A stretch of 64,000 nt of DNA from Candidatus Pacebacteria bacterium RIFOXYA1_FULL_38_18 (lineage in GTDB: Bacteria > Patescibacteriota > Microgenomatia > UBA1400 > PJMF01): assembly GCA_001787405.1 (NCBI GenBank), contig MFWV01000007.1, positions 15,694 through 79,693 of the forward strand, given 5' to 3'. Position numbers and translations under genes: made by a program. Under the pieces are notes generated by a model, which was not told the DNA's origin, ran no database searches, and was given only the letters and a program-made list of their open reading frames with translations. This document shows, in pieces, positions 24,188 to 42,691 of the stretch. Position 1 is the first letter of the stretch; every line of letters begins with the position of its first letter.

Positions 24188-24202
24188 AATCAAGCTTTAA
24201 TT

Positions 24203-25405
24203 ATGTCAATTTTTTCATATACGGCCAAAAATACTCACGGAGAAGTAATCAAAGGCAAGGTAGAGGCACAAACCAAAGCTCAAGCTGCCTCGATGCTATT
24301 TAGTCGCAATTTATTGGTGATCAAGATTTCTCCTATAGGAGATTCTAGTTTAGCTTTTGTGACTGAAGCATTAAACAAAGTCAAACACGAAGACTTGGTC
24401 AATTTTACTCGTCAATTATCTACCATGATTAGTGCTGGTTTGCCGTTGGCGACAGGACTGACTATCCTACGTGAACAAAACAATCCAGCCATGGCAGAGG
24501 TAGTGACTGATCTTTTACGCGAAATAGAAGGCGGAAATACTTTTGCCAAATCACTGGAAAAGCAACCAGATGTTTTTGATAGAATTTATATTCAGCTTAT
24601 CAAAGCAGGAGAATTGGGTGGAGTGATGGATAAGGTTCTGAGCAAATTGGCCGAAAACTTGGAAAAAGACAAAGAATTTCGAGCCAAGACCAAAGGAGCC
24701 ATGATCTATCCAGTAATTGTTTTGGTTGCGATGTTGGTTGTGGGTTTTATCATGTTGGTTTTTGTGATTCCCAAATTGACGGCCATGTACCAAGATTTTG
24801 GAGCAGAATTACCTCTACCTACCTTGATTTTAATCGGGCTTGCCAATTTTGCCTCTCGTTTTTGGTGGCTGTTTATTCTTTTATTAATTGGTGGCGGTGC
24901 TATTTTTAAGAAATGGTCCAAGACCATTACTGGCCAAAGAAAAATCGACTCGATTTTACTTAAAGTTCCCATTATTGGCACTCTCCGGCAAAAAATTATC
25001 TTGACCAATTTCTCCAGAACCCTGTCATTGCTTTTAACTTCTGGAGTGCCATTATTAAGTTCCTTGGGGATCGTATCTGAGGCAGTAGACAGTATTTTGT
25101 ATCGTGAGGCTTTACAAGAGGTAAATAAAAAAGTGGAAAAAGGAGTGTCACTTTCTAGAGCCATGTCAGTTTATGATTTATTTCCCGGCATCTTGCATCA
25201 AATGTTGAGTGTGGGTGAGGAAACCGGTAAATTAGATGAGGTATTATTGAAATTATCCAGTTATTTTGAGGCAGAAAGCGAGCAAGCAGTCAAAAACCTG
25301 ACTTCGGCTATGGAGCCACTCATCATGGTGGTCTTAGGTTTGGGTGTGGGCGCGATGGTAATTGCCATTATTATGCCTATCTATAGTTTGACCAGTCAAT
25401 TTTAG
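24203..25405 (+). CDS. pilC: type IV pilus platform protein PilC (GspF family)
   Basis: Two GspF repeats with 3 TM segments; GELGGVMDKVL-like motifs. Confidence 0.85.
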   Translation: MSIFSYTAKNTHGEVIKGKVEAQTKAQAASMLFSRNLLVIKISPIGDSSLAFVTEALNKVKHEDLVNFTRQLSTMISAGLPLATGLTILREQNNPAMAEVVTDLLREIEGGNTFAKSLEKQPDVFDRIYIQLIKAGELGGVMDKVLSKLAENLEKDKEFRAKTKGAMIYPVIVLVAMLVVGFIMLVFVIPKLTAMYQDFGAELPLPTLILIGLANFASRFWWLFILLLIGGGAIFKKWSKTITGQRKIDSILLKVPIIGTLRQKIILTNFSRTLSLLLTSGVPLLSSLGIVSEAVDSILYREALQEVNKKVEKGVSLSRAMSVYDLFPGILHQMLSVGEETGKLDEVLLKLSSYFEAESEQAVKNLTSAMEPLIMVVLGLGVGAMVIAIIMPIYSLTSQF

Positions 25406-25602
25406 ACAAGTGACTGATTTTTTGATTCACACGTTTCCATTTGAGTGAAAATTATACCCTTGTTTTCACAAGCGCTCGTTTTAAAAGACCAGTCACTTGC
25501 TCAGTAGACTCATTTTAGTGTACAGTTATAGATGATAGAAATTAGTAATTATGCAGTTGTGGGTTAATTAATGGGTAATTTAAATAATACCAGGGAGGAA
25601 AT

Positions 25603-26253
25603 ATGAAAATACTGCCTTTTTTAAAAAATCTTCAATCACGAGTCAAACTCGGTGGTGGTAGTGGTGGTTTTACCATGATTGAGCTCTTGATCGTGATTGC
25701 TATTTTGGGTATCTTGGCGGTGGCGGTGCTATCAGCCATCAATCCAATTGAGCAAATCAATCGTAGTCGAGATACTGGTAGTCGCTCTGATGCAGAGCAA
25801 TTGATCAGTGCCATTGACCGCTACTACGCCTTCAATGGTTACTATCCATGGCAAACTGGAGCAGATGATCTAACTAACGTTGATTTGGCTTGGACGAAAT
25901 TTGATACTACGCTTTTAAAAGATAGTGGTGGGACTTGTTTTGTGGGAGAGAAACTTGGTACAGCTACTACGGCTGGTTGTACGGGTGCTGACGAGTTGAA
26001 ACAGAGTTTCTTGGAAAGAGTATCAAAAACTACCTATAACGCGTTGTATATTTACAATGACGGTAGTCAAGGTAGTAGTACTTATGCTTGCTTTGCTCCC
26101 AAATCTCAAGCCTTTGTTCAAGAAACGGAACAACGCCTTGATCCAGATGGTGATGGTACTTTGGATAACTACCCCACTGATTATCCGGCCACTGATGCGA
26201 TCGGCAATACTGCTCAATGTGGTACTGGTGGCAACTGTGTGTGTCTACCATAA
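25603..26253 (+). CDS. type IV major pilin with a long leader peptide
   Basis: Class III signal ...GGSGG|FTMIELLIVIAILGILAVA with the conserved Glu5. A C-terminal Cys pair is present. A strong RBS (AGGGAGGA) precedes the gene and a strong intrinsic terminator follows it. Confidence 0.75.
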   Translation: MKILPFLKNLQSRVKLGGGSGGFTMIELLIVIAILGILAVAVLSAINPIEQINRSRDTGSRSDAEQLISAIDRYYAFNGYYPWQTGADDLTNVDLAWTKFDTTLLKDSGGTCFVGEKLGTATTAGCTGADELKQSFLERVSKTTYNALYIYNDGSQGSSTYACFAPKSQAFVQETEQRLDPDGDGTLDNYPTDYPATDAIGNTAQCGTGGNCVCLP

Positions 26254-26282
26254 GGTTGGAAGTTAAATCAAAAAATAAAAAA

Positions 26283-26308
26283 CCCCGAACTTAAACTTCG
26301 GGGTTTTT
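26283..26308 (+). terminator. rho-independent terminator after the major pilin gene
   Basis: CCCCGAA-cttaaac-TTCGGGG hairpin followed by TTTTT. Confidence 0.8.
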
Positions 26309-26368
26309 AGTTTCTCTGCTGTTGGTTTAGATTTGCTCTCCTCTCCCCTGATTTAGTATACTGAACTC

Positions 26369-27187
26369 ATGGAGTTTTCTTGGCCGATAGCAATCACGGT
26401 TTTTTTACTGGGTACTGCAGTGGGCAGTTTTCTAAATGTATTGGTTTATCGCATGTTGAGAAATGAAGATTGGATTAGGGGCAGATCATATTGCGAGACT
26501 TGTCATAAACAGATTTCTTGGTATGAAAATATTCCGATCTTATCCTATCTTTGGTTAAAAGGTCGTTGTTCTCGTTGTCAAACGTTGATTAATCCTATTC
26601 ATCCTACTTTGGAGTTGTTGACGGGCGCACTTTTTTTATGGTGGTATGTAGAAGGCTGGCAAGTATTTATGGCCAAAGCCTGGCTATTGCCTATCTTGCA
26701 ACCATTGTTTTGGTTAGTAATTGGTCTGGTTTCAATTACTATCATTATTGCTGATTTCAGAGAAATGATCATTCCTCGTTGCTCAGTCTCTCTTTTGATT
26801 ATTCTTACCCTGCTTTATCGGTTAGTTTTAATTCTCACGGGTGAAATGCAAGCGGTTGATCTTTGGTGGAGTTTGCTTTGGTCACTGATTTTGGTTTTAG
26901 TTTTCTTTTTTTTATGGTGGGTTACCAAAGGCAAGAGTTTTGGTTTTGGTGATGTACAACTAGCTTTGCCACTAGGCTTATTATTGGGCAGTTGGCAGAG
27001 AATCGTGATTGGTATTTGGCTGGCTTTTTTGATTGGAGCAGTAGTTGGTTTGTCATTAGTTTTTTCAAAAAAGAAAGGCTTTCGTCAATCAATTCCCTTT
27101 GGACCATTTTTGATTTTAGGTACGGCTTTAAGTTTGCGCTGGGGTTGGCAATTATGGGAAGCTTATCTTAAATTGATTGGTAGTTAA
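26369..27187 (+). CDS. pilD: prepilin peptidase (A24 family)
   Basis: An N-terminal CxxC...CxxC zinc-binding tetracysteine (CETCHK...CSRCQ) and multi-TM peptidase A24 core. Confidence 0.85.
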   Translation: MEFSWPIAITVFLLGTAVGSFLNVLVYRMLRNEDWIRGRSYCETCHKQISWYENIPILSYLWLKGRCSRCQTLINPIHPTLELLTGALFLWWYVEGWQVFMAKAWLLPILQPLFWLVIGLVSITIIIADFREMIIPRCSVSLLIILTLLYRLVLILTGEMQAVDLWWSLLWSLILVLVFFFLWWVTKGKSFGFGDVQLALPLGLLLGSWQRIVIGIWLAFLIGAVVGLSLVFSKKKGFRQSIPFGPFLILGTALSLRWGWQLWEAYLKLIGS

Positions 27188-27204
27188 AAAAGAATAAAAA
27201 ATCT

Positions 27205-28239
27205 ATGAGAGTGCTAAAAATTTTTTTCAGTTTTGTTTTCGCTTTGTTAATCTTGGGGTCTTTGAGCTGGCTTTCTTGGCGTGAAATTCAACTTTACCGA
27301 GCAATTAGTCAAGTCAGATCTTCTGCAAGAAAAATGCGCGAACTGCAACCCAGCGGTCAATTTAGTCAAAATTGTTTGATATATGGTGGCTCACCAGTTG
27401 ATAGCCAAACTTTGACTAGAACACAATTGCGTTTTATTTCAAATAAAGATTATGTTTTGGAAATAGTTTGTCAAACAAACGAATCTTTGCGTCAATTAGT
27501 TGAAGAAGCTACTTTGCCAATGCTGGTAAATAAAGATTCCAATCAATCTGGTTTAATCTTTGGTCAAAAACAACATGGTGTGACCTTGTCGATTTTGGGC
27601 AGAACTGGAGTAGTTTATGAAGGAGAATCATTTATTCAAAGTGCTACACGTTATCGGGTTGATGATGGTTTGATTTTGGATCAAGGTCCAGTTACTGCTT
27701 GTACTGGTTATGGTTTTACTTGTTGTGACGAAACTTATCAATTGGGTCAGAATGAACAAAATACTCAAGCTTTGGATTGTCCCAAATCTTGTTATGAAAG
27801 TTGCATCGAAAAGCCAGTAATCTTGAGTTTTCATAGTCTTCCCTCTTACTCTTCGGCAGAAAAAATAATCCAAATTCAATCTGGTGAGCAGGTTGAGTTT
27901 TTTTATACAGTCAATGATATTCAGGGAGACTTGCTCACTAGAAGATTTGCTAGTCAAGAAGAGTGGTCTGATACAAGTTGGTCAGAGAAGCTAATTCGTG
28001 TCATAGAAAGTTTTTTTAATCAACAGCCAGTGACTGATAGTTTGGAAAAAATTATTGTTTCTTTTGGTGACAAAGAAACCGCAGAGCTCTCTGACTTGCA
28101 AGGATCGGTTGTACACACCTATACTTGTAATCAGCGCTTGTGTGTTTATAACGCTACTATTCAAGCCATGACCAAAAACAAGATTACTAGTTCTTTGGAT
28201 CAAGACAGTAGTATTCAAATACAAGTACAAGGACAATAA
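27205..28239 (+). CDS. hypothetical membrane-anchored, Cys-rich extracytoplasmic protein within the pilus locus
   Basis: N-terminal TM or signal-anchor segment. Many Cys residues lie in the mature part (CTGYGFTCCDETYQ..., CPKSCYESC). No family recognised. Confidence 0.4.
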   Translation: MRVLKIFFSFVFALLILGSLSWLSWREIQLYRAISQVRSSARKMRELQPSGQFSQNCLIYGGSPVDSQTLTRTQLRFISNKDYVLEIVCQTNESLRQLVEEATLPMLVNKDSNQSGLIFGQKQHGVTLSILGRTGVVYEGESFIQSATRYRVDDGLILDQGPVTACTGYGFTCCDETYQLGQNEQNTQALDCPKSCYESCIEKPVILSFHSLPSYSSAEKIIQIQSGEQVEFFYTVNDIQGDLLTRRFASQEEWSDTSWSEKLIRVIESFFNQQPVTDSLEKIIVSFGDKETAELSDLQGSVVHTYTCNQRLCVYNATIQAMTKNKITSSLDQDSSIQIQVQGQ

Positions 28240-28242
28240 ATT

Positions 28243-28692
28243 ATGATAAAGTTTTCTCCCTCAAGATTTTCCCCAGGTTTTAGTTTGTTGGAGTTGTTAG
28301 TAGTAATTTCTATTATTGGAATCTTGATTGCCATCAGCACAGTTGCTTTTACCACTGCCCAAAGAACTAGTCGTGATTCTCGTCGTCGGTCTGATATCAA
28401 AGCAATGCAAGATGCTTTTGAACAATATATGGCTGACAATGGCACTTATGAAGCTTGTGCAACCATGGCAGCCTATGATAATGGCTCTGGCTCGATCATG
28501 CCGGCTGGTTTGCCGATTGATCCGCGCAATTCCGGGGATCATGTTTATAACACCAGCACTGGTTGCACGACCAGTGGTTATTGTGTTTGCGCGCTTTTGG
28601 AAAGTGGGTCTGGTAATGCAGCTGCTCCTCTTGCTGATGCGTGCAATTATGTGAGTGGCGGTGATTATTATTGTTTATCTGATCTTCAATAA
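28243..28692 (+). CDS. type IV (pseudo)pilin
   Basis: Prepilin signal RFSPG|FSLLELLVVISIIGILIA. C-terminal Cys residues are present. Confidence 0.7.
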   Translation: MIKFSPSRFSPGFSLLELLVVISIIGILIAISTVAFTTAQRTSRDSRRRSDIKAMQDAFEQYMADNGTYEACATMAAYDNGSGSIMPAGLPIDPRNSGDHVYNTSTGCTTSGYCVCALLESGSGNAAAPLADACNYVSGGDYYCLSDLQ

Positions 28693-28747
28693 AATTCAAA
28701 ACAAGTCAAATAAGATTGATAAATCAATTAAAAAGAAATAAAAAAAT

Positions 28748-29155
28748 ATGAGAAAACCCTCTACCCCTTCTGGTTTTACCATGATTGAGTTATTGGTGGT
28801 GGCCACAATCATGATTGTTTTGACCACGATTGGTTTGATCAGTTATCGCAGTGCCATCCAAAACAGTCGCAATGCCAAACGAAAAACAGATTTACAAATC
28901 ACTCGCCAAGCCCTAGTTCTTTATCGTAGTGATAATGGTTGTTACCCGGCAGATAATACTTTTTTGGGAATGCTGAATACCATTACTGGCTACATTAACG
29001 AAACTCCTTATGATCCACTGGGTTCTGCAGGAGCTCCACTTTATATCTATACACCCATTGATGCCGGTAGTTGTGGCATTGGTGAAGCGACTGGATTTGT
29101 TCTGGAAGCAAGTTTAGAACCGGACAATACAGCCTATACAGTTGAGAATCCGTGA
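28748..29155 (+). CDS. type IV (pseudo)pilin
   Basis: Prepilin signal STPSG|FTMIELLVVATIMIVL. Confidence 0.7.
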   Translation: MRKPSTPSGFTMIELLVVATIMIVLTTIGLISYRSAIQNSRNAKRKTDLQITRQALVLYRSDNGCYPADNTFLGMLNTITGYINETPYDPLGSAGAPLYIYTPIDAGSCGIGEATGFVLEASLEPDNTAYTVENP

Positions 29156-29174
29156 GGGATAGAAAAATAAAATC

Positions 29175-29708
29175 ATGATCAAAAAAAATATTTTTTTTCC
29201 AGTTGGTTTTTCTTTAATTGAACTGTTGGTAGTAGTAGCTATTTCCATGATTTTATTGAGCGTGGCAATTAGTTCACTGATTACTTTCAATGAACGCAGA
29301 TCAATCACCAATGCTGTAGATGAATTAAAAAGTCAAATTCAAACGGCTCAATCTAAAGCACAAGCCGGTGATTTGGGAGGGTGCAATCAGTTGGCTGGTT
29401 ATTCATTGCAAACTTATCTTAATGGTAATGTTACCGAGATATCCATGCAAGCAAGCTGTGGGGTGGGTATTCCTGACACTGCTCAAATTCAATCTTTGCC
29501 GGCTGGAGTGACCGTGACTCCCGATTTGGATGCTAATTTTCAAGTTCTCAATGCCGGAGTACAGTTGCCAAGTGGGGTGGCCAGTCAAGATTTCACGATC
29601 GCCAATAACACTCATAGTTATGTTTTTACTTTGTATCGAGAAGGTAGAACCAGTGAAGGAGCGTGGCAAGAAAATCAATTACCGGTAGGACCGGTATCAC
29701 CGTTTTAA
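29175..29708 (+). CDS. type IV minor pilin
   Basis: Prepilin signal FFPVG|FSLIELLVVVAISMILL. Confidence 0.7.
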   Translation: MIKKNIFFPVGFSLIELLVVVAISMILLSVAISSLITFNERRSITNAVDELKSQIQTAQSKAQAGDLGGCNQLAGYSLQTYLNGNVTEISMQASCGVGIPDTAQIQSLPAGVTVTPDLDANFQVLNAGVQLPSGVASQDFTIANNTHSYVFTLYREGRTSEGAWQENQLPVGPVSPF

Positions 29709-29718
29709 AAAACAAAAA

Positions 29719-30207
29719 ATGAAAAAATGGTTTAACAAAAAATTACTCAATCAGACCGGTTCTAGCTTGATTGAGGTGATTGTAGCTACTGGTGTTATCG
29801 CTTTGGTGTTGACGGCGCTAGTAGCTGGTATGACTGTTTCTTTACAGACTAGTGCAGAAGCAAAATATCGCTCGCAAGCTATTAAGCGAGGTCAGGAAGC
29901 GATGGAGGTTTTTCGCAGAGAGAGAACTTTATTGGGTTGGCATGGTTTTATTAATCAATTTGGTAGTGGTGGTACTTACTGTTTGCAAACGCTACCAGCA
30001 CCAAGAGGAAGTTTTACTTTGGGTGAATGCGCAAGCAATGAGAGTTTAGTCATATCAGGACTTGATTTTTATCGAAATGCAATCGTCAGCGTGGACAATA
30101 CTGATCCCACCAACGCCCAGATGAAGGTGGAAATAGTGATTACTTGGAATTCTGGTCGAACCGAGCACAACATCGATTTAACTCAGGTTTTTCGTCAATG
30201 GGATTAA
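29719..30207 (+). CDS. PilV-like minor pilin
   Basis: N-terminus ...NQTGS|SLIEVIVATGVIALVL, characteristic of the PilV/FimT class. Confidence 0.6.
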   Translation: MKKWFNKKLLNQTGSSLIEVIVATGVIALVLTALVAGMTVSLQTSAEAKYRSQAIKRGQEAMEVFRRERTLLGWHGFINQFGSGGTYCLQTLPAPRGSFTLGECASNESLVISGLDFYRNAIVSVDNTDPTNAQMKVEIVITWNSGRTEHNIDLTQVFRQWD

Positions 30208-30231: not shown

Positions 30232-30780
30232 TTAATTATTGCGTAGAGTCACTCCCGACTGAAAGGTTTCTTGAGCTGTTTCTCGGTCAGCACTCTCCCC
30301 TGCTCCAATCTGTAACTGAAATGAAATGCCGATATAAAAAGAGGATTCTTCTCCAGTCAAACAAACAAATTCTAGGTTTGACAGGTTAGTTTCATCAGAA
30401 GTCAAATAATAATAATCATTGATGGCACTAGAATAAGAAGCAATTTTGGGATTTTCCTCTGGATAAGTCTGGAGAGTAGTAATGAAACCATCAAAACCCT
30501 CTACGGCAAGACTGGTCATGGGATTGTTTGGATCATTATTGCAAGTAGTGGCTCCGTCCAGAGATGGTGCCAAACGCCGAGCATTACGTAAAATAAACTC
30601 TATATTTGACAGAGCATTTTCTCCTTCACTTTTTACTTTTTGTTCAATGCTAGTCTTTTGGGAAGTGATCAAAAAAGTCATCAAGATGGAGGTGACGGCT
30701 AGCATAATAATCACGGTTAGAGAAGTTACTACTAGTAGTTCTATCAAAGTAAAGCCGGCGGATTTTTTCAGCATTTTCAT
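30232..30780 (-). CDS. type IV minor pilin; start set at the internal Met (MKMLKKSAG|FTLIELLVV)
   Basis: Prepilin signal with Glu5. It is the last gene of the convergent minus-strand operon. Confidence 0.6.
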   Translation of the reverse strand: MKMLKKSAGFTLIELLVVTSLTVIIMLAVTSILMTFLITSQKTSIEQKVKSEGENALSNIEFILRNARRLAPSLDGATTCNNDPNNPMTSLAVEGFDGFITTLQTYPEENPKIASYSSAINDYYYLTSDETNLSNLEFVCLTGEESSFYIGISFQLQIGAGESADRETAQETFQSGVTLRNN

Positions 30781-30806
30781 TTTTATTGTAGCGATTTTTG
30801 GCATAG

Positions 30807-32153
30807 TTAGGGAGTTGAAAACCGCGGTTGAATTTCACGAATATTAAAATGAGCAGATTTCATCAAAGTGGGAATGTTGACCATAAAATCAGGGCGAAAA
30901 ACAAAAGTTTCAGTAGGAGTAGTATTATTGACGCTATTATCTTCAAGTTTGGCAAAACTTCTTTGTAAATTAATTCCGGTCCATCCCACAAAAGTACCAG
31001 CAGCAATGAATTTTTTGTCTGGATTGGTCAAATAACTTTGTACCCAGATAGTTCCATCAGTAATAAAAACACCTTCTATCAAGGGAGTATCTGGGGAAGC
31101 TGAATCAGTATTTACATTTGCGTAACCTACATGAGGAGTAATAATTACGTCTCCTTGGCTAATAAAAGCCAGAAAGCCTCTACCCCCCCTCTCCACCGTA
31201 ATCAGCCGATTTTCTGCTCCTGGCTGATCGTCAATGATCAAATTTCCTTCCAAGAAGACAATAATTTGTTCATTGGCAGTTAAGTGCCACTGATTGCCCT
31301 CTCCGATAGTCAGATCACCACTTTGATGGTAAATAGCTGGATAATTTGCTACGGTTGGTTTCTGAGAGCTGGGCAAAGGCATTGCTTTTGCAGACATTTT
31401 TTTATAAAAATAGGCATAATTTTCCGTAGGCAAACTTATACCAAGTGCAAAACCTTGATCAGAATTAGAGCGCTGATCTGGATCATGAATAAAGTTTCCA
31501 CCGGTTGCGTGAGTATAAATAATTCCGTCACTACTAAAAGCAAAACCGGGACTATCCAGAGTTGTTTGATTATCATCACCGATCAATGCCGGCAAACAGC
31601 CAGCAGTAGTATTGCAGTATCCAGGCGTTCCAGCCAAACTTACGGGAATTAAACTCTGGATATTATATTTGGAAAAAACATTGCCGCCTCGTACTTGCCA
31701 CCAGGCGTTATTTTGTACATTAGCTCGTTTGACAAAGACATTGATCGGTCCAGGAGTGGCTGGATTTTGATTGGTAAAAACACATTGATACGCATCCAAA
31801 GGATTGGCGTTACAGGCACACTGCCAAGCATTGGTTGGATCCGGTGGAGGATAAGGCAGACTAATAGTGACTGAATAATCAGGATAGTTGCCTTCTACTT
31901 GAACAGAATAAGTATTATCAATTACATTACCAGAGTTTTCTTCTCCAGGCCTACTGGCTTTGATTTTGAAACCCACTCCGCTCACTTGTGTAGTAGTCAG
32001 GCCAGCGCAGCGATTATCAGTACTCTCAAAACCCACAGGTGTGGCATTTTCATCAACAAAGATTCCCCCACCAAAGCCAGCAGCACTGACTATTTGACTT
32101 GAACGAATCAACACGAGAAAAAAACTCAAACCAATCAAAATGATTTTTCGCAT
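30807..32153 (-). CDS. secreted protein of unknown function, paralog A; start set at MRKIILIGLSFF..., a signal peptide
   Basis: Signal peptide present. It shares an approximately 400-aa C-terminal domain with the upstream 678-aa protein (for example NAWQCACNANP..., GAENRLITVERGGRGFLAFISQGD, KKFIAAGTFVGWTG, IFRPDFMVN). Confidence 0.5.
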   Translation of the reverse strand: MRKIILIGLSFFLVLIRSSQIVSAAGFGGGIFVDENATPVGFESTDNRCAGLTTTQVSGVGFKIKASRPGEENSGNVIDNTYSVQVEGNYPDYSVTISLPYPPPDPTNAWQCACNANPLDAYQCVFTNQNPATPGPINVFVKRANVQNNAWWQVRGGNVFSKYNIQSLIPVSLAGTPGYCNTTAGCLPALIGDDNQTTLDSPGFAFSSDGIIYTHATGGNFIHDPDQRSNSDQGFALGISLPTENYAYFYKKMSAKAMPLPSSQKPTVANYPAIYHQSGDLTIGEGNQWHLTANEQIIVFLEGNLIIDDQPGAENRLITVERGGRGFLAFISQGDVIITPHVGYANVNTDSASPDTPLIEGVFITDGTIWVQSYLTNPDKKFIAAGTFVGWTGINLQRSFAKLEDNSVNNTTPTETFVFRPDFMVNIPTLMKSAHFNIREIQPRFSTP

Positions 32154-32182
32154 TAATATCAGTGTACAAGAAATCTTCTTTG

Positions 32183-34219
32183 CTAGAAACTCGGTTCGAT
32201 TTCTCGCCAACTCATTTGAGCAGACTTAATTTGTCTGGGAGCATTGATGATAAAGTCAGGGCGGAAAATAAAGACTTCGGTGGCAGCAGCGCTATTTAGT
32301 TCTGGACTCACTCCGTCATCAAAATTCCTCTGTAAATCTACTCCGTCCCATCCCACAAAAGTACCAGCCCCAATAAATTTTTTATCAGTGACTCCTGTTT
32401 GACCAGCAATGGTTATCAAACCATCAGCTACAAACACTCCCTCTACATTGGCCACATTGGCAGTAGCGGCATTGGTATAAATATTGTCATAACCTACATT
32501 GGCAGAAATAGTGAGATCTCCACGGACAACAAACATCAAGAAACCATCTCCTCCAGAAGCTACGGTAGTGAGTCTATTCTCTCCTCCTACCGTATCATCG
32601 ATAGTCAAATTACCATCTACAAAAACAATGATTTGTTCTGTATTGTTTAAATTCCAGGAATTGGTCTGATCAATATTTAAGTTTCCGGAATAAAGATAAA
32701 CTCCCAAATTGTCACTGCCGACAATGGGTTTTTGAAGATTGGTAAGAGTTTGAGCTGAAGCACCAAATTTATTGTAGAAATAGTCGTAGTTTTCCAAAGG
32801 TACTCTTACTCCCAAAGCCTGACCTTGAACAGCACTGCTTCGACCATCTACCTCATGGATATAGACTCCAGAACTGTCACTGGTCACGATTGCACCAGTA
32901 TTTACCAAGGGAAAACCAGCACTATCTACTGTGCCTGATGGATCACGCAACATCAAGGCAGGATTGCAAGTAGGCAGACTACAAGTAGCAAAAGGAATCT
33001 TGGATTGAATATTGTCTGAGGCCCAAGAACTGCCACCCAAAGTTTGGAACCAGGCAGAAGTTATTTCATTGCGTTTGACAAAGAAATTGATGAAACCCTG
33101 ATTTGGTTGTTGATTGGTATACAGACAGCGGAAGGGATTGGAAGGATCGGCATTACAAGCACACATCCAGGCATTGTTTGGATCTGCTGGTGGAAACTCT
33201 AGTTCCAGGGCAACGGTGTAATCACTATTACTGGTATTGGCGACAATAGAATAGGCAGTGTTGTTGATGATTTTGGATTGATTTTCTCCAGTCCGATTGA
33301 GAGTCAATAGACCATTAGTAATTGAAGCGGCAACTGCGGTGCTACCGGTACACAGATTATCTGTTCCGCCAATGCCTGAAGCAATGGCATTTTCATCCAT
33401 GTAAAAATTACCTCTAAATCTTTGCACTGGTGTAGGCGTAGGGGTGAGCGTGGGCACTATTGGTGCGGTTACGTATAAAATCTTATCGTCGTAGCACATC
33501 GACACCCCAGACGCATATACCCTAGCCCGCAAAGTTACGCTTCCGGAAGTATCTCCACTAGTAGCTACAGATTTCCACCCATCTGCTCTTACAGTATCAT
33601 CCAAAGGATCTAGTGTTAATGTGCCAACCCCAGCTATTTTTCGAAAAGTTACTTTGGTGGCAATCATATTGTTTTCATTTACCACCGCTATCAAGCTTTT
33701 TGTATCATTTTCTCCCGCCACAAAATCTCCTGTAAGCGCATTTAGTGTTACCGTACAACTAGGCGTGGTAGGTGTAGGCGTGGGTGTAGGCGTAGGTGTA
33801 GGCGTGGGTGTAGGCGTTCCCCCTCCTCCAGTGGGTGTGGGGGTGGGACAAGGAATAATCTGAAAGAGAGTGCTATCTGTCGTACACTCACAGTAGAGAA
33901 AGCCCGCATCATCACACTGATCAGCACACCAGGTATAAGTCCCCGCACAATTATTTCCTCCAAGAGGACAATTCTCACAGGAGATAGCACACTGGTAATC
34001 GCTGTTGCAGTAGGTGGTTTGACCCTGACAATCAGTAGCGCAACCCGTTCCAGCTGGAGCATAATAATCACACCCATATTCTCCTGGTGTAGTACAAATG
34101 TTTGGATCAGTAATAGTTGGATACACAGTTTGGGCAAGAGCCTGCTGGACAGAAGTAAACAGGAAAACAATAGCCAAGATCACTAGACTGAGTTTGGACA
34201 AAAATTTCATCCCACTCAT
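32183..34219 (-). CDS. secreted protein of unknown function, paralog B, with an N-terminal Cys-rich module and a Pro-Thr linker
   Basis: Signal peptide, then a Cys-rich approximately 100-aa module and a (PT)n linker, then a C-terminal domain paralogous to 30807..32153. Confidence 0.5.
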   Translation of the reverse strand: MSGMKFLSKLSLVILAIVFLFTSVQQALAQTVYPTITDPNICTTPGEYGCDYYAPAGTGCATDCQGQTTYCNSDYQCAISCENCPLGGNNCAGTYTWCADQCDDAGFLYCECTTDSTLFQIIPCPTPTPTGGGGTPTPTPTPTPTPTPTPTTPSCTVTLNALTGDFVAGENDTKSLIAVVNENNMIATKVTFRKIAGVGTLTLDPLDDTVRADGWKSVATSGDTSGSVTLRARVYASGVSMCYDDKILYVTAPIVPTLTPTPTPVQRFRGNFYMDENAIASGIGGTDNLCTGSTAVAASITNGLLTLNRTGENQSKIINNTAYSIVANTSNSDYTVALELEFPPADPNNAWMCACNADPSNPFRCLYTNQQPNQGFINFFVKRNEITSAWFQTLGGSSWASDNIQSKIPFATCSLPTCNPALMLRDPSGTVDSAGFPLVNTGAIVTSDSSGVYIHEVDGRSSAVQGQALGVRVPLENYDYFYNKFGASAQTLTNLQKPIVGSDNLGVYLYSGNLNIDQTNSWNLNNTEQIIVFVDGNLTIDDTVGGENRLTTVASGGDGFLMFVVRGDLTISANVGYDNIYTNAATANVANVEGVFVADGLITIAGQTGVTDKKFIGAGTFVGWDGVDLQRNFDDGVSPELNSAAATEVFIFRPDFIINAPRQIKSAQMSWREIEPSF

Positions 34220-34259: not shown

Positions 34260-36098
34260 TTATTGCCAATAATCCATTGGAAATTGAGGTGTTGCTGCCA
34301 TTAATATTTCGTATTGAAGAGAGTTGATATCTTCTGGAGAGGCTGGCCCCACAAAACCCAATCCTCCAAGCTCTTTAATTTCAGGAAACTTGGTATTGAA
34401 TAGATCTACTAGATCGGGATTGCTAGCCAAAGGTCCCCCTTCTGAAGCATGATAAAGCTCGTCTGGGGCACTGGCTTCGGAAACGAAATCAGGACCGATG
34501 AACTGACCAGAAACTGAGCCGGTAAAATTACCATAGGCAACATAGGGCATTGGTCTGGCGGTCATAGAAAGACGATCTTCAGAATTATTAGTTTGACCTA
34601 GAAAGACCCCATAAACTAAATTCCTGGGAGTTTGATTGCCTGGTCTATAATCTTCTTCCCATGGCCACTCTGGTCCAAAAATATAGTGGAAGAGAACCGA
34701 GGTTTTACCATCGGGCATAAGCATTTGTTGGGTGCCAATGAGAGCCTCTTTGCCCTCTGGGGTAGTTGTTCTGCTAAAGTTTGTCCAGCGACGGGGATCA
34801 GTTTCATGGGTAATGATGTCTTTCATTGCAGTCCAAGCGTCGTCGTTTGTGCCATGAGTAATGCCGACGAGTTGAATAGTATAATCATATTGAATACCTG
34901 TACTCAAAACCCACCAAAGATCATCTAGCACCAGTGTCCCCTCGGGGAAGGGTTGGGCGACGAGAGCCTCAGAAATGAGTAGTCGGCCAGATTCGATGTC
35001 TGCCAAGTCGATTTCTGGGTAGTTTTCAGTTTCTCTGGCGTCAGTGAATATTTCCAGAGGAGCGACCCATTGACCGGTTCTTTCCAGGAAGAAGTAGATG
35101 ACTTCTCCCTCGGTGTTTTTGATGGTCAGGACATGTTCTACACCAGCCACGATGGTGTCTCTGGCTTCAAAAGCTTCCTGGGGGAAACTGAGTGTTTCTT
35201 GGTCTGCGGTGGTGATGGTGATGGTGGCTGCTTCGGTAGAGCGAATTACTACTTTGTTTTCTCGGTTGATGAGTTGGGTGCCGTCTTCTGTTGATTGAAT
35301 GGTGTAGCCTGCTTCTCTGAGAGCTGATTGTTGACTGGTGAAAGACTCTGGAGTGGCCGAGATTACTTCGGTGGGTTTGACGGTGGGAGTGGGAATCTGA
35401 TTAATGTCATCTGGATCTTCGTCATCAGGATTGGAAATATCAGGATCTTCATCTATGACAACGGCTGTGGGGTAGTTGTTATTGATTTCCGGTGGTGAAA
35501 CTTTACAAGAAACAGCAATAAGGGCCAAAAGAGCGGTAGCAGACAGACCAATTACTTTTTTGGTTTGATTACTACTATCATAATTTCTATTCTCCCAAAT
35601 CAATTGTAGTGCCTGTTTTTCTGCGTCTTTGGCTTTGAACTTGGCCACTGCTTTTTTGGTTTTATTGGCAAACCCTTTTTCCGGTAGATTATTTACTATC
35701 AAATGAAATCTAGCAGCTGTTTCTAGAGCTAAAGTTAACTGGGCGGATAAAGTCAATTCTTGAGGTTTGATTTCTTCAAATTTACTATCAGAAGCAATGC
35801 CTCGTATCAATCCTCTTCTGCTAACACGAAGAGTAATAGGATTTTTTTGGTTCGGTTCTGGAATTTTCTCAATCAGAGTGGCTAATTGTTCCACAGAAAG
35901 CCGATCAAGGTTGTCTATTTCAGCGGGAAAGACAAGCTTGCCGGCTTCGATCAGAGCTTTTACATATTTAGCAACAACTTCTTCTACCTGTTTTTTACCT
36001 TGGAAATCTTTAAGTTCAAAGTGATGCTGAACTTCAATAGGATCTGATTCGGCTTCAGGCGATTTAGGTGCGATAGAGTTTAACTCTTTTTCTGCCAT
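34260..36098 (-). CDS. bitopic membrane protein of unknown function
   Basis: Roughly 180-aa cytoplasmic N-terminal domain, a single TM helix (VIGLSATALLALIAV), an acidic DEDPD-rich linker and a roughly 380-aa extracytoplasmic domain. No family recognised. Confidence 0.45.
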   Translation of the reverse strand: MAEKELNSIAPKSPEAESDPIEVQHHFELKDFQGKKQVEEVVAKYVKALIEAGKLVFPAEIDNLDRLSVEQLATLIEKIPEPNQKNPITLRVSRRGLIRGIASDSKFEEIKPQELTLSAQLTLALETAARFHLIVNNLPEKGFANKTKKAVAKFKAKDAEKQALQLIWENRNYDSSNQTKKVIGLSATALLALIAVSCKVSPPEINNNYPTAVVIDEDPDISNPDDEDPDDINQIPTPTVKPTEVISATPESFTSQQSALREAGYTIQSTEDGTQLINRENKVVIRSTEAATITITTADQETLSFPQEAFEARDTIVAGVEHVLTIKNTEGEVIYFFLERTGQWVAPLEIFTDARETENYPEIDLADIESGRLLISEALVAQPFPEGTLVLDDLWWVLSTGIQYDYTIQLVGITHGTNDDAWTAMKDIITHETDPRRWTNFSRTTTPEGKEALIGTQQMLMPDGKTSVLFHYIFGPEWPWEEDYRPGNQTPRNLVYGVFLGQTNNSEDRLSMTARPMPYVAYGNFTGSVSGQFIGPDFVSEASAPDELYHASEGGPLASNPDLVDLFNTKFPEIKELGGLGFVGPASPEDINSLQYEILMAATPQFPMDYWQ

Positions 36099-36144
36099 CT
36101 TTATCTAGTGGAAAGTATACCACTAGTGAGAAATTTGAGCAAAT

Positions 36145-36744
36145 TTATTGCCAGAATTGTCTAGTAACTTCAATGATGATTTGGTCAGCTATTTTATCAG
36201 GCACATCACGTACATCAGTGACATAAGAAATAGCTACACCATTACCGATTTCCATTTGGGTATAGGCAATGACAGAGGTTTTACCATCACTATTTAGAGT
36301 TACTCGCGTTTTTTCTAACTCGGCTTTGGTTAATTCAAAAACAACGGTTGTTTCTGGTGTGCCTTTGTTTAGTTCCAAAACTAGAGCAACATCGTCTGGA
36401 TTGGTAGCTTCTTGTGTGTACCAATTTGCAAGCAAACCACTGTAGGTAGTGCGCAGAGAGCCCATTACCAGCAGAGAACTTTTGGGGTCGGCATCAGATA
36501 ACTCTCCAGTTGTTTCAGCAACTTTTTGTTGATCTATCTTTACTCCTGGTATGAGACTAGTAGGTTGATTAGTTTTTTCTGCTTGTTGATTGTTTTTTCG
36601 TGAGATAGCTAGAGCTATCCAGACGCTGAAAATAATGACGGCTACGATAATGCCAGCAATCAAGATGGGTGATTTCCACTGAATTTCTTCATCTTCTTTA
36701 GTGGATTTTGGCAGAATTGGTTTGGAAAACACAGAATCAGTCAT
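36145..36744 (-). CDS. membrane-anchored protein of unknown function; first gene of the convergent operon
   Basis: N-terminal TM helix (ILIAGIIVAVIIFSVWIALAI) followed by a roughly 140-aa extracytoplasmic domain. Confidence 0.4.
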   Translation of the reverse strand: MTDSVFSKPILPKSTKEDEEIQWKSPILIAGIIVAVIIFSVWIALAISRKNNQQAEKTNQPTSLIPGVKIDQQKVAETTGELSDADPKSSLLVMGSLRTTYSGLLANWYTQEATNPDDVALVLELNKGTPETTVVFELTKAELEKTRVTLNSDGKTSVIAYTQMEIGNGVAISYVTDVRDVPDKIADQIIIEVTRQFWQ

Positions 36745-39383: not shown

Positions 39384-40208
39384 TTATTCTGTAAGTTCTT
39401 CCAAGCCCAATGTTTCCTCCAAATTCGTAACAGTCAGTCCTTGAATACCAAACAGATCATCATTGTTACCGCTGATAATCGTTGTTTGTCCTTCAATTTT
39501 GGTTGGTGAAAATTCCAAAATAGCTTGAAACACTCTTTTTTCTTCTTCAGAAATAATGGGGAGAGCAGAAGACAGGGTAGAAGAGATGGGCTTGGTGTAG
39601 TAATAAGCGCTCAGTGACAAATCAGCTCTAGTGGCATTTTCAATCAAAGGGTCATTGACCTTGCGATCAATAGTCAAACTATTGATAGTGGTCAAAGGAG
39701 AAACTCTTTCGATCAGATCCATAAACATTCTCACTTGTGGCAACGGACCAACAACGGTTAATTCCAAGTCCAATTGGTCATAATCAGATTTAATCTTTTT
39801 TTGATTGGCAGTTTTATCTACTTGAGTGCTATCGCTGGCAATTTCTCCAGGATTTATCTCAAATTCTGTAATAGAAACTCTTGTTTCTCCAGCTACGCTA
39901 TTCAAGTTATTCAAAACTTCCAAAAGTGGTTTGTGGGAAGGCAAAACACGATTAATTTGTTCTGCTTGAGCGAATTCTGGAGAAAATTTTAATTGTGCCA
40001 GTTCTTGAACTTTACGATCCAGTTGGGCAATTTTGTCATTTTCTTTTTTCAATTGGCGGTTGGTTGCCAGAGCATTGGTAGTTTGATTATAAGTGAGAAT
40101 AATCAGAATGAGAGTTGTCAAACCAAAAGCAATAGCCAGAAGCAAATCTCTTCTGGTATTGAGCAATAATTGCCAGTTAAAATCGCTGAAGCGATTAAGC
40201 TTTGCCAT
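39384..40208 (-). CDS. pilO: PilO-like type IV pilus assembly protein
   Basis: N-terminal TM helix, coiled-coil segment and a periplasmic domain. Position after pilM-pilN supports the call. Confidence 0.5.
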   Translation of the reverse strand: MAKLNRFSDFNWQLLLNTRRDLLLAIAFGLTTLILIILTYNQTTNALATNRQLKKENDKIAQLDRKVQELAQLKFSPEFAQAEQINRVLPSHKPLLEVLNNLNSVAGETRVSITEFEINPGEIASDSTQVDKTANQKKIKSDYDQLDLELTVVGPLPQVRMFMDLIERVSPLTTINSLTIDRKVNDPLIENATRADLSLSAYYYTKPISSTLSSALPIISEEEKRVFQAILEFSPTKIEGQTTIISGNNDDLFGIQGLTVTNLEETLGLEELTE

Positions 40209-40211
40209 AGC

Positions 40212-40766
40212 TTATTTATCTCTTTCTTTTTTCAGTTCTACCGCAATATCCAAACTATAATTGCCAGTTTCATCTCGTCTCAAGCCACTTTGAGAAACAG
40301 AACTAAAAACATTTTTTACTTCATCAGATTCAAGTACATTCAGAGTATTTTCAAAGGCAAAAACATCCTGACTGGTTAAACGTAGCGATAGCTCATTTCC
40401 CTCTCCTCCATAATTCATGCCTGATAAAAATACTTGATCACCAAAAACATTGGAGAAAAAATCAATGGCTTGTTGTTTATTACTCCGACTTTCATAAATT
40501 TCTCTGACACTTTTCAATTTTTGAGAAAAAATCAAGAAACTCACTTCCACTGGTTCTTCATCGGCAATTTGTGTTGTAAGAGCTTGTTGGGTGGCATTTG
40601 CTTGTCGCAAACGGGTGGTAAGAAAAATATTGGCCCCGATCGCCAAAACAAAGAAACTTAGAGCAATAATAAAAGCGATCGTGGCATAACGACGATAAAG
40701 AGTGTCTTGTTTATTGGCTTTGCCCAAAGAAGCTCTGCGTCCAGTAAGGAAATTAATCTCCGACAT
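40212..40766 (-). CDS. pilN: PilN-like type IV pilus assembly protein
   Basis: MSEINFLTGRR... N-terminus, a single TM helix and a coiled coil; 184 aa, directly downstream of pilM. Confidence 0.55.
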   Translation of the reverse strand: MSEINFLTGRRASLGKANKQDTLYRRYATIAFIIALSFFVLAIGANIFLTTRLRQANATQQALTTQIADEEPVEVSFLIFSQKLKSVREIYESRSNKQQAIDFFSNVFGDQVFLSGMNYGGEGNELSLRLTSQDVFAFENTLNVLESDEVKNVFSSVSQSGLRRDETGNYSLDIAVELKKERDK

Positions 40767-40769
40767 ATT

Positions 40770-41795
40770 TTAAGCCTCCCTCATTAGCAATCCCATGCAA
40801 ACGGAAAAAGCTAATTGATTTTGAGTGGGGATTTCTCCGGTGGCAGTAGCAAAAGGAGCTGCAAGTAAAATTTCCAGGTTGAGGGTACTAGTAAGATGTT
40901 CTACTAAACCTGGTAATTGTGCCGATCCGCCGGTTAAAACCAAGCGCTGAATTGTATTTTGAGGAGCTTGGTCGGCAAAATAACGCAAAGCTTTTTGAAT
41001 TTCTCCAGCTAGATTATTGATAGTGGGCAACAAGGCATTTTTTACTTTACCTTCAAATTGATCTGCGTTGAGTCCATAGGCGCGCTTGTATTGTTCAGCT
41101 TGTTGTAAATCTAGGCCTACTGTTTGTTGCAAAGTATTGGTCAGAAGATTGCCGACTCCTTTGTGAGTAAAAACAAACTGAATTTCTCCGTTTGCTACCA
41201 CCATGATATCCATATTGGTTGCTCCCAAATTAATAACCATGGTGGCTGGTTCTTGTTGATCAATACCTAAAGAGCGCAGTACCGAGAGCATTTGAGTTTC
41301 CAAAAAACTTGGCTCAATACCAGCATTGGTAAATAAAGCAAGATAGCGTTCTACCAAAGGTTTGCGAGTGCCAGTTAATAAGACACGCATTTGTGCTTGT
41401 TCATTATTTTTTTGAGAAAGACTGGATTTTGGCGGACGATATAAAACTTTGTATTGTAAAGATAATTCTTCTTTGGGAATAGGAATGTGTTGTTCTGCTT
41501 GCCAACCAATTGCAGAAGCAAGCTCGGCATCGGTGAGAAAAGGAATGGTGATTACTTTGGTAGAGACTGCAGTTTCTGGCAGACTCAAACGAATGTCCGT
41601 ATGGGGTAATTTATTTTCAAAAATGGTGTTATTGATTAGTTCGCTGAGTTGTTCTGTTTGCAAATCATCAGTGGGCATGGCCACTCCAAAATTATTTGGT
41701 ATTTCTATGGTACGCAAAATATTGGGAGTTCCATCAGGATCGGCAGCGATCGCTTTTATTGCATAAGTTCCAATGTCGATAGCTGTGGCAGGCAT
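40770..41795 (-). CDS. pilM: type IV pilus assembly ATPase-like protein PilM (actin/FtsA fold)
   Basis: N-terminal AIDIGTYAIKAI phosphate-1 motif and a later LVLTGGSAQLPGL motif typical of PilM/FtsA. Confidence 0.8.
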   Translation of the reverse strand: MPATAIDIGTYAIKAIAADPDGTPNILRTIEIPNNFGVAMPTDDLQTEQLSELINNTIFENKLPHTDIRLSLPETAVSTKVITIPFLTDAELASAIGWQAEQHIPIPKEELSLQYKVLYRPPKSSLSQKNNEQAQMRVLLTGTRKPLVERYLALFTNAGIEPSFLETQMLSVLRSLGIDQQEPATMVINLGATNMDIMVVANGEIQFVFTHKGVGNLLTNTLQQTVGLDLQQAEQYKRAYGLNADQFEGKVKNALLPTINNLAGEIQKALRYFADQAPQNTIQRLVLTGGSAQLPGLVEHLTSTLNLEILLAAPFATATGEIPTQNQLAFSVCMGLLMREA

Positions 41796-41807
41796 GATAG
41801 TTTTTCT

Positions 41808-42617: not shown

Positions 42618-42691
42618 GATTTTTCCTGCTTCCATGATACGAATTCTTGATTCAGGAAACAAGAGTTAGTTAATTTATGATGGTTTTTGGA

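What the first reader, a model, noticed from the sequence alone, without database searches (positions are those of the whole stretch)
30807..34219. Tandem paralogous secreted proteins with a shared approximately 400-aa C-terminal domain and a Cys-rich N-terminal module
The 467-aa and 678-aa proteins share long collinear blocks: NAWQCACNANP versus NAWMCACNADP, GAENRLITVERGGRGFLAFISQGD versus GGENRLTTVASGGDGFLMFVVRGD, KKFIAAGTFVGWTG versus KKFIGAGTFVGWDG, and IFRPDFMVN versus IFRPDFIIN. These indicate a local duplication followed by divergence. The larger copy adds an approximately 100-aa module with about 20 Cys and a (PT)14-like linker. The pattern of conserved Gly/Asn/Asp with alternating hydrophobics hints at a beta-helix or beta-solenoid fold. 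A diversifying adhesin pair is plausible for an epibiotic or host-attached lifestyle.
Basis: seen in the sequence. Interest (0 to 1): 0.6.

Follow-up and report, generated by a model that had tools for sequence, protein, structure and literature searches.

The report
Pilus-linked secreted beta-solenoid adhesin pair
Two neighbouring genes of an ultrasmall (CPR) bacterium encode related secreted proteins with an ice-binding-protein-like beta-solenoid, and because they sit in the type IV pilus gene cluster just before a dedicated minor pilin gene they are good candidates for the sticky part of the pilus.

Summary
The 678-aa ORF (32183-34219, minus) and its neighbour share 45% identity over 421 residues (E 9e-118), spread evenly rather than confined to low-complexity sequence. 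The neighbour is 448 aa from ATG 32153, not 467 aa.

The genes lie in a complete type IV pilus cluster, in one operon that ends in a canonical minor pilin gene 2 nt downstream. This gene pair recurs in 33 of 63 related genome loci.

The family is large, with 3152 clusters at 50% identity, mostly Patescibacteria. Members have Sec-type signal peptides rather than prepilin ones. The C-terminal domain is conserved and under purifying selection (omega about 0.12). The N-terminal modules are highly variable and often Cys-rich or lectin-like.

Best reading, inferred from context and fold: a non-pilin, pilus-associated adhesin or receptor that works like PilY1 and uses a ComZ-like fold. It is uncharacterised, which makes it a new variant of a known kind.

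The parts
32183..34219 (-). Long paralogue, 678 aa. Layout: Sec-type signal peptide (res 1-29, nt 34133-34219); Cys-rich module (res 42-124, 14 Cys, nt 33848-34096); PT/GGGG linker (res 125-153, nt 33761-33847); unresolved ~100-aa module (res 154-255, nt 33455-33760); second PT linker (res 256-265); shared beta-sandwich plus beta-solenoid domain (res 266-678, nt 32186-33424).
   Evidence: ORF and translation. Cys positions and linkers. AF2 model m86435639c956 has pLDDT above 90 for residues 266-660 and 31-62 for residues 30-260. The signal peptide was judged by inspection (n-region, hydrophobic core, ALA|Q), not with SignalP.
30807..32153 (-). Short paralogue, 448 aa from ATG 32153. Layout: signal peptide res 1-24; beta-sandwich res 25-130 (nt 31764-32081); irregular middle part res 131-245 (nt 31419-31763); flanking helix plus beta-solenoid res 246-420 (nt 30894-31418); conserved C-terminal tail res 421-448 (nt 30810-30893).
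30232..30804 (-). Minor pilin (w190, 190 aa) with a canonical prepilin motif G|FTLIELLVV including Glu5. Its start codon lies 2 nt after the stop of the short paralogue.
   Evidence: Pfam N_methyl E 7e-6. Weak N-terminal NCBIfam hits to HpsC, ComGF, GspH and GspJ. Spacing. A homologue follows a family gene at -34 to +75 nt in 33 of 63 loci. The reciprocal check held in 3 of 3 loci.
34260..36098 (-). Upstream operon gene (w612, 612 aa) with one internal transmembrane segment near residue 187. Function unknown.
   Evidence: No Pfam or NCBIfam hit. 40-nt gap to the long paralogue. Genes of similar size and topology sit upstream of family genes in many loci, but sequence homology between them is not detectable.
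36145..36744 (-). First gene of the operon (w199, 199 aa), anchored by an N-terminal transmembrane segment. Function unknown.
   Evidence: The best promoter-like match on the minus strand (10/12) lies at 36815-36786, just upstream, but promoter-like sites in the region are no more frequent than chance.
21326..30207 (+). Convergent type IV pilus operon. It encodes PilB (21326-23095), PilT (23096-24187), PilC (24203-25405), a 216-aa pilin (25603-26253), the prepilin peptidase PilD (26369-27187), a conserved unknown TM protein w344 (27205-28239) and four further pilin-like genes (28243-30207).
   Evidence: Pfam hits. The same set is present in about 35 related loci.
39384..42662 (-). Further pilus genes 5 kb away: PilO/T2SSM_b-like (39384-40208), a 184-aa protein in the PilN position (40212-40766), PilM (40770-41795), and a PilX_N-like 284-aa pilin lacking Glu5 (41808-42662).
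   Evidence: Pfam hits. N-terminal sequence.

Best explanation
The two genes encode paralogous, Sec-exported surface proteins of a large uncharacterised family.

Architecture (shown): the conserved C-terminal ~420 residues form a beta-sandwich plus a right-handed beta-solenoid of the ice-binding-protein / choice-of-anchor-A / ComZ fold. Variable modules sit N-terminal to it. In the long copy these are a 14-Cys module, PT linkers and one more domain. The short copy has none.

Proposed function (inferred): the proteins are accessory components of the type IV pilus. They are made from the same operon as one particular minor pilin, exported by Sec and stabilised by disulfides. They then dock through the conserved C-terminal domain onto the minor-pilin priming complex that ends up at the pilus tip. 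There the variable N-terminal modules bind the target, either a host-cell surface glycan or possibly DNA.

In function this resembles PilY1/PilC, a non-pilin tip protein encoded among minor pilins. In fold it resembles the solenoid of the tip pilins ComZ and cyanobacterial PilX, but here the solenoid and the pilin are separate polypeptides. The long and short copies may act as a heteromeric pair, one carrying the binding modules and one bare.

Shown: paralogy, fold, signal type, synteny, selection regime, domain modularity. Inferred: pilus association, tip location, docking through the C-terminal domain, ligand.
For: - Paralogy is 45% over 421 aa and even along the length.
- AF2 is confident for the shared domain in both copies.
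- ComZ is a pilus-tip DNA receptor whose solenoid resembles ice-binding proteins (PMC6561018). Cyanobacterial PilX proteins share that architecture and are proposed to act as PilY1-like tip plugs (bioRxiv 10.64898/2026.02.12.705559). The CAA adhesive domain has the same fold (bioRxiv 10.1101/2023.03.06.531300).
- The window holds a complete pilus cluster.
- Operon spacing is 40, 29 and 2 nt.
- In 63 genome loci found through the domain, 33 have a w190-like pilin gene starting -34 to +75 nt after the family gene on the same strand, and about 35 have PilB/T/C/D within 10 kb.
- Distant homologues (32-35% identity) occupy the same position.
- Starting from the pilin instead, 3 of 3 w190-like pilins at 31-38% identity are preceded at 8-30 nt by a family member.
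- None of about 190 family N-termini has a prepilin GFxxxE motif. Nearly all look like Sec signals.
- Omega is about 0.12 for both copies and 0.06 for the pilin. The N-terminal region of the long copy aligns only with the closest relative.
- Larger relatives carry F5/8 type C, NedA-like galactose-binding, Laminin_G_3, fn3 and TSP1 domains.
Against: - No direct evidence places the proteins on a pilus. The link is gene context plus fold resemblance.
- 26 of 63 loci have no pilus gene nearby, including four loci on Chloroflexota contigs of 1.7-3.7 Mb. The domain is therefore not strictly tied to pili.
- The conserved C-terminal tail motif is equally present in pilus-linked and unlinked copies, so it is not a pilin-specific docking signal.
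- There is no sequence similarity to ComZ, PilX, PilY1 or any PDB chain (E up to 10).
- Foldseek finds nothing significant.
- The N-terminal 260 residues of the long copy are not modelled with confidence, so its binding function is a guess.
- A membrane-anchored partner encoded upstream could tether the proteins to the cell surface instead.
Confidence: 0.5

Rival explanations
1. The proteins are cell-surface adhesins that do not ride on the pilus. After Sec export they are held at the envelope by the membrane-anchored proteins encoded just upstream (w199-like and w612-like). They sit beside pilus genes only because attachment functions are co-regulated.
For: A small N-anchored protein (~170-250 aa) preceded by a ~550-770-aa protein with an internal TM lies upstream of family genes in most of 55 loci, whether or not pilus genes are near. 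26 of 63 loci lack pilus genes. The conserved C-terminal tail is shared by linked and unlinked copies. Lectin-like N-terminal modules occur in relatives.
Against: The upstream proteins show no detectable homology across lineages, so a conserved tether is unproven. This model does not explain the near-invariant tight coupling to one specific minor pilin class in 33 loci, or the reciprocal pairing.
Confidence: 0.25
2. The proteins are secreted beta-helix enzymes, such as polysaccharide lyases or hydrolases acting on host cell walls or EPS. They may be exported or positioned by the pilus-like machine in the way type II secretion substrates are.
Confidence: 0.1
3. The proteins are structural parts of the pilus machine itself, for example an extracellular conduit or cell-wall-spanning collar that replaces the secretin in these monoderm-like cells, rather than ligand-binding proteins.
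For: The C-terminal domain is strongly conserved under purifying selection, at a level similar to PilT and PilD. It is constantly present next to pilus genes in many Patescibacteria.
Against: Extreme N-terminal modularity with lectin-type domains, lineage-specific copy number and many unlinked copies are not what a core machine part would show.
Confidence: 0.08
4. The proteins are true ice-binding or antifreeze proteins of the DUF3494 type.
Against: No sequence match to DUF3494 even at E up to 1. The fold is also used by ComZ of a thermophile and by adhesive CAA domains without ice binding. The pilus synteny argues for another role.
Confidence: 0.02

Closest known systems
ComZ of Thermus thermophilus (PDB 6QVI) and cyanobacterial PilX/HpsA-type tip pilins
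   Different: ComZ and PilX are pilins, with the solenoid inserted into a GspK-like pilin fold behind an N-terminal hydrophobic helix. The proteins here have Sec signals and no pilin fold, and the pilin is a separate gene. There is no sequence similarity. The solenoid here keeps the flanking alpha-helix typical of ice-binding proteins.
PilY1 / PilC tip-associated adhesins of proteobacterial type IVa pili
   Same: Both are large, Sec-exported non-pilin proteins encoded among minor pilin genes and followed by a pilin gene. Both combine a variable N-terminal part with a conserved C-terminal part thought to dock on the minor-pilin complex. This comparison rests on established knowledge.
   Different: The PilY1 C-terminal domain is a beta-propeller and its N-terminus often carries a vWA domain. 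Here the conserved domain is a beta-sandwich plus beta-solenoid. No Pfam match to the PilC/PilY1 family was found.
DUF3494 ice-binding proteins and choice-of-anchor A (CAA, PF20597) adhesive domains
   Different: No sequence-level match was found. No LPXTG, PEP-CTERM or T9SS anchor follows the domain, which is itself C-terminal in most members. The pilus synteny is specific to this family.
Pfam DUF7305 (PF23981)
   Same: A minority of relatives hit this model weakly on the solenoid core: 8 of 58 at E up to 1 and 7 of 54 at E up to 0.001, best E 1.2e-6 at about the 27-bit cut-off.
   Different: The two window proteins do not hit it. The model covers only about 95 residues of the ~420-aa conserved region. 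DUF7305 has no known function, and no paper in the held library mentions it.
PilX1 / PilX2 of Nanosynbacter lyticus TM7x (Saccharibacteria)
   Same: Both are large pilus-locus proteins of a CPR bacterium with non-canonical signals and proposed adhesin roles. PilX2 is needed for host binding.
   Different: PilX1 and PilX2 have an N-terminal helix and a pilin domain followed by a lectin-like jelly roll or a beta-propeller. They have neither a solenoid nor a Sec-type signal.

Membership tests
ComZ / PilX-type solenoid-bearing tip pilins | N-terminal hydrophobic pilin helix (class III signal or at least the alpha1 helix) and a pilin fold | tested here: not met
   No GFxxxE-type motif in about 190 family N-termini; they look like Sec signals with AXA-type cleavage sites. 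The AF2 models show a beta-sandwich after the signal peptide, not a pilin fold.
ComZ / PilX-type solenoid-bearing tip pilins | Triangular ice-binding-protein-like beta-solenoid | tested here: met
ComZ / PilX-type solenoid-bearing tip pilins | Solenoid inserted between the last two strands of the pilin domain | tested here: not met
   The solenoid is the C-terminal part of a separate non-pilin polypeptide.
ComZ / PilX-type solenoid-bearing tip pilins | Encoded next to a partner minor pilin in a pilus or competence locus | tested here: met
   w190 starts 2 nt downstream. The pair recurs in 33 of 63 loci, and in 3 of 3 loci in the reciprocal check.
ComZ / PilX-type solenoid-bearing tip pilins | Detectable sequence homology | tested here: not met
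   A profile of 58 family members finds no PDB chain at E up to 10.
ComZ / PilX-type solenoid-bearing tip pilins | DNA binding and tip location | not testable with these tools
   Needs biochemistry or imaging.
PilY1 / PilC tip adhesins | Sec-exported non-pilin protein encoded in the minor-pilin operon | tested here: met
PilY1 / PilC tip adhesins | C-terminal PilY1/PilC beta-propeller domain | tested here: not met
   No Pfam hit at E up to 1. The fold is a beta-solenoid.
DUF3494 ice-binding proteins (PF11999) | Match to the family profile | tested here: not met
   Absent from the Pfam results for the window proteins at E up to 0.1 and for 58 relatives at E up to 1.
DUF3494 ice-binding proteins (PF11999) | Right-handed triangular beta-helix with a flanking alpha-helix | tested here: met
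DUF3494 ice-binding proteins (PF11999) | Flat Thr/Ser-rich ice-binding face and ice-binding activity | not tested
   Model coordinates could not be inspected with these tools.
Choice-of-anchor A domain proteins (PF20597) | Match to the family profile and a C-terminal sorting anchor (LPXTG, PEP-CTERM or T9SS) | tested here: not met
   No Pfam hit. The proteins end with the conserved tail ...W[RQ]E.. and have no transmembrane anchor.
DUF7305 (PF23981) | Match above the gathering score (27 bits) | tested here: inconclusive
   The window proteins give no hit. A few relatives reach 26.9-28.4 bits over about 95 residues.

The most novel reading that the evidence does not exclude
The family is a 'split ComZ'. 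The receptor solenoid and its pilin stalk are made as two tightly coupled polypeptides, and the conserved, monomer-disordered C-terminal tail of the solenoid protein completes or clamps the fold of the dedicated minor pilin. The interchangeable N-terminal lectin-like and Cys-rich modules would then be the host-range determinants of Patescibacteria episymbionts. The long and short paralogues would form a heteromeric tip.
Probability: 0.15. Interest if true: 0.8.

Novelty: new variant of a known kind. Interest (0 to 1): 0.6.

Why it matters
How ultrasmall Patescibacteria recognise and attach to their host cells is largely unknown. Type IV pili are the best-supported attachment organelle, but the binding component has been identified only in one Saccharibacterium (PilX2 of TM7x).

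This family is widespread, with 3152 clusters at 50% identity. It is genetically welded to one minor pilin class across many CPR lineages. It pairs a conserved domain with freely exchanged lectin-like modules, which is the pattern expected of a specificity-determining tip adhesin.

If confirmed, the family would give a sequence handle for predicting host range from metagenomes. It would also show that the ice-binding-like solenoid has been recruited to pilus tips in a second architectural way, as a separate subunit.

Tried and rejected
- Pfam and NCBIfam on both paralogues and the neighbours w612, w199 and w344: nothing informative.
- PDB sequence search with the family profile: nothing at E up to 1 and up to 10.
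- Foldseek against the PDB and viral libraries: no significant hit. The afdb50 library was unavailable.
- AF2 of the long copy: did not resolve the N-terminal 260 residues, so the fold of the Cys-rich module stays unknown.
- dN/dS between the paralogues themselves: not attempted, because at 45% identity synonymous sites are saturated. Even orthologue comparisons beyond the closest relative were saturated (pS above 0.7).
- Homology among the upstream membrane proteins: phmmer clustering and hhalign between clusters found none, best probability 83% over 67 columns between two sub-clusters. Pfam on ten of them gave nothing.
The reciprocal synteny test therefore rests on four look-ups only.
- Literature searches for DUF7305, PF23981, Patescibacteria plus solenoid, and CPR plus cysteine-rich adhesin: nothing found.
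- Considered and rejected: low-complexity artefact, recent duplication, pilin identity, phage origin.
Full report
**Observation.** The region holds two adjacent minus-strand ORFs. BLASTP aligns residues 46-464 of the downstream product with residues 268-678 of the upstream one. It gives 45% identity, 61% positives, 12 gaps and E 9e-118. Identity is 30-70% in every 30-residue window and 43-52% in each structural segment. A family HMM finds only these two copies in the window.

Three details need correction. The downstream gene most likely starts at ATG 32153 (448 aa), as in the identical public protein P0001 from Candidatus Pacebacteria bacterium RIFOXYB1_FULL_39_46 and in its orthologues. The Cys-rich module has 14 Cys in residues 42-124, not about 20. 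After the PT/GGGG linker there is a further ~100-aa module and a second PT linker.

**Fold.** An AF2 model of the short copy was built on 58 homologues and has mean pLDDT 85. It shows a signal-peptide helix, a beta-sandwich (residues ~25-130), a less regular stretch (131-245) and then a short helix followed by a beta-solenoid (246-420, pLDDT mostly above 95). It ends in a conserved but poorly modelled tail. The long copy gives the same fold for residues 266-660, but its first 260 residues are unresolved at pLDDT 31-62.

At sequence level there is no match to Pfam or NCBIfam for the window proteins, and none to any PDB chain at E up to 10. A few relatives touch DUF7305 at about its threshold.

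The literature supplies the link between these folds. ComZ is a GspK-like pilin with an inserted solenoid that resembles ice-binding proteins. It binds DNA and the neighbouring pilin PilA2, and is argued to sit at the pilus tip (PMC6561018). Cyanobacterial PilX proteins have the same architecture and are proposed to replace PilY1 as a tip plug. The choice-of-anchor-A adhesive domain also shares the fold.

**Context.** The window carries a complete type IV pilus system.
- PilB, PilT, PilC, a 216-aa pilin, PilD, a conserved unknown TM protein (w344) and four more pilin-like genes lie on the plus strand at 21326-30207.
- PilM, a 184-aa protein, a PilO-like protein and a PilX_N-like pilin lacking Glu5 lie at 39384-42662.

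The paralogues sit in a convergent minus-strand operon in the order w199 (N-anchored), w612 (internal TM), long copy, short copy, w190. The gaps are 40, 29 and 2 nt. w190 is a canonical prepilin with G|FTLIE.

**Family and synteny.**
- A word-indexed search found 58 clusters, all from Patescibacteria or metagenomes. The short (~442-448 aa) and long (565-636 aa) forms fall into separate similarity tiers and are adjacent on the same contigs.
- A full HMM scan of 1.84 billion representatives found 3152 proteins at E up to 1e-3 and 955 at E up to 1e-30. Lengths among the 150 best-scoring proteins listed run from 250 to 1600 aa, and the domain is almost always at the C-terminus.
- None of about 190 N-termini has a prepilin motif. 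Nearly all look like Sec signals followed by Cys-rich sequence (20-30 Cys in the first 200 residues). A subset has an N-terminal membrane anchor and no Cys in the first 200 residues.
- Larger members carry F5/8 type C, NedA-like galactose-binding, Laminin_G_3, fn3, TSP1 and CarboxypepD_reg domains ahead of the conserved domain.

A scan of one genome per species returned 63 loci. In 33 of them a w190-like pilin gene starts -34 to +75 nt after the family gene on the same strand. About 35 have PilB/T/C/D within 10 kb. Homologues at only 32-35% identity occupy the same position.

I also ran the test in reverse, starting from the pilin. Three of three w190-like pilins at 31-38% identity are preceded at 8-30 nt by a family member (E 1e-75 to 1e-108). 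A 23%-identical pilin is not.

Against a strict pilus link, 26 loci have no pilus gene nearby. These include four on Chloroflexota contigs of 1.7-3.7 Mb. A TM6 genome does carry the linked arrangement (L042).

**Evolution.** The long-plus-short tandem pair is conserved in L004-L010 at 53% identity or more. Each copy is closer to its orthologues than to its paralogue, so the duplication predates these lineages. Other lineages have one copy, or independently two (L001, L030, L034, L046).

Against the closest relative, NG86 gives omega 0.12 for both copies and 0.06 for w190, with dS 0.9-1.3. More distant comparisons are saturated. The shared domain is conserved about as well as PilT or PilD. Residues 30-265 of the long copy align only with the closest relative. 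The conserved part is therefore under purifying selection, and the N-terminal modules are what change.

**Interpretation.** The data show a secreted, modular protein family whose conserved C-terminal domain is genetically coupled to one class of minor pilin. The most economical mechanism is a non-pilin pilus-tip partner. It would work like PilY1, with a ComZ-like solenoid supplied as a separate subunit and the variable N-terminal modules doing the binding. I put this at about 0.5.

The main rival, at 0.25, is a surface adhesin tethered by the membrane proteins encoded upstream. That arrangement recurs in linked and unlinked loci, although no homology among those proteins is detectable. The conserved tail motif E.F.[FY]RPDF..N.P..MK.....W[RQ]E occurs in both linked and unlinked copies, so it cannot be a pilin-specific signal.

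Enzyme, machine-part and ice-binding readings are less likely, for the reasons given under the rivals.

**Novelty.** No paper in the held library describes this family. The TM7x PilX1 and PilX2 proteins are built differently. I rate the family as a new variant of a known kind, the pilus-associated adhesin or receptor. Its pilus association remains to be shown.

Noticed in passing
window 27205-28239 (+): A 344-aa protein (w344) with an N-terminal TM segment and a Cys-rich C-terminal half, and no Pfam or NCBIfam match. A homologue follows PilD in nearly every pilus-linked locus examined. It looks like a conserved but unnamed component of the Patescibacteria type IV pilus cluster.
   Followed up: partly
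window 41808-42662 (-): A 284-aa protein with a PilX_N match just below the Pfam cut-off (24.9 vs 25.5 bits). Its pilin-like N-terminus (..NGQIGLVVLL..) lacks Glu5. It is encoded with PilM, a 184-aa protein and a PilO-like protein, and is a candidate cap pilin of the same system.
   Followed up: partly
window 34260-36744 (-); loci L001-L066 upstream of family genes: Family genes are usually preceded by a ~170-250-aa N-anchored protein and a ~550-770-aa protein with an internal TM segment, in pilus-linked and unlinked loci alike. In the window and in L004 the order of the two is swapped. No sequence homology is detectable between lineages, and no Pfam domains are found.
   Followed up: partly
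window 30810-30893 and 32186-32260 (-): The last ~25 residues of the family (N.P..MK.....W[RQ]E..) are strongly conserved, yet they have low pLDDT in both monomer models. This suggests a segment that folds only against a partner.
   Followed up: partly
L012, L016, L019, L025, L038, L055 (Chloroflexota); L042 (TM6): Family members occur outside Patescibacteria. Four lie on Chloroflexota contigs of 1.7-3.7 Mb, and none of the six Chloroflexota-labelled loci has pilus genes nearby. One lies in a complete TM6 genome with the full pilus-linked arrangement. Horizontal transfer or mis-binning was not examined.
   Followed up: no
loci L008, L009, L014, L015 and about 25 others: Many contigs with typical Patescibacteria pilus synteny carry record titles such as 'uncultured Pseudomonadales bacterium' or 'Gammaproteobacteria'. 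One (L046) is titled 'Methylococcaceae'. These are probably mislabelled or mis-binned MAGs.
   Followed up: no
P0059, P0062, P0151, P0162; P0059 residues 515-726: In a few representatives the conserved domain is not C-terminal. P0059 carries a Gly_rich_2 domain after it.
   Followed up: no
window 14695-17490 (-): The GyrA ORF is 931 aa. The topoisomerase domain begins at residue 88 and matches in two stretches, so there may be an N-terminal extension or an insertion.
   Followed up: no
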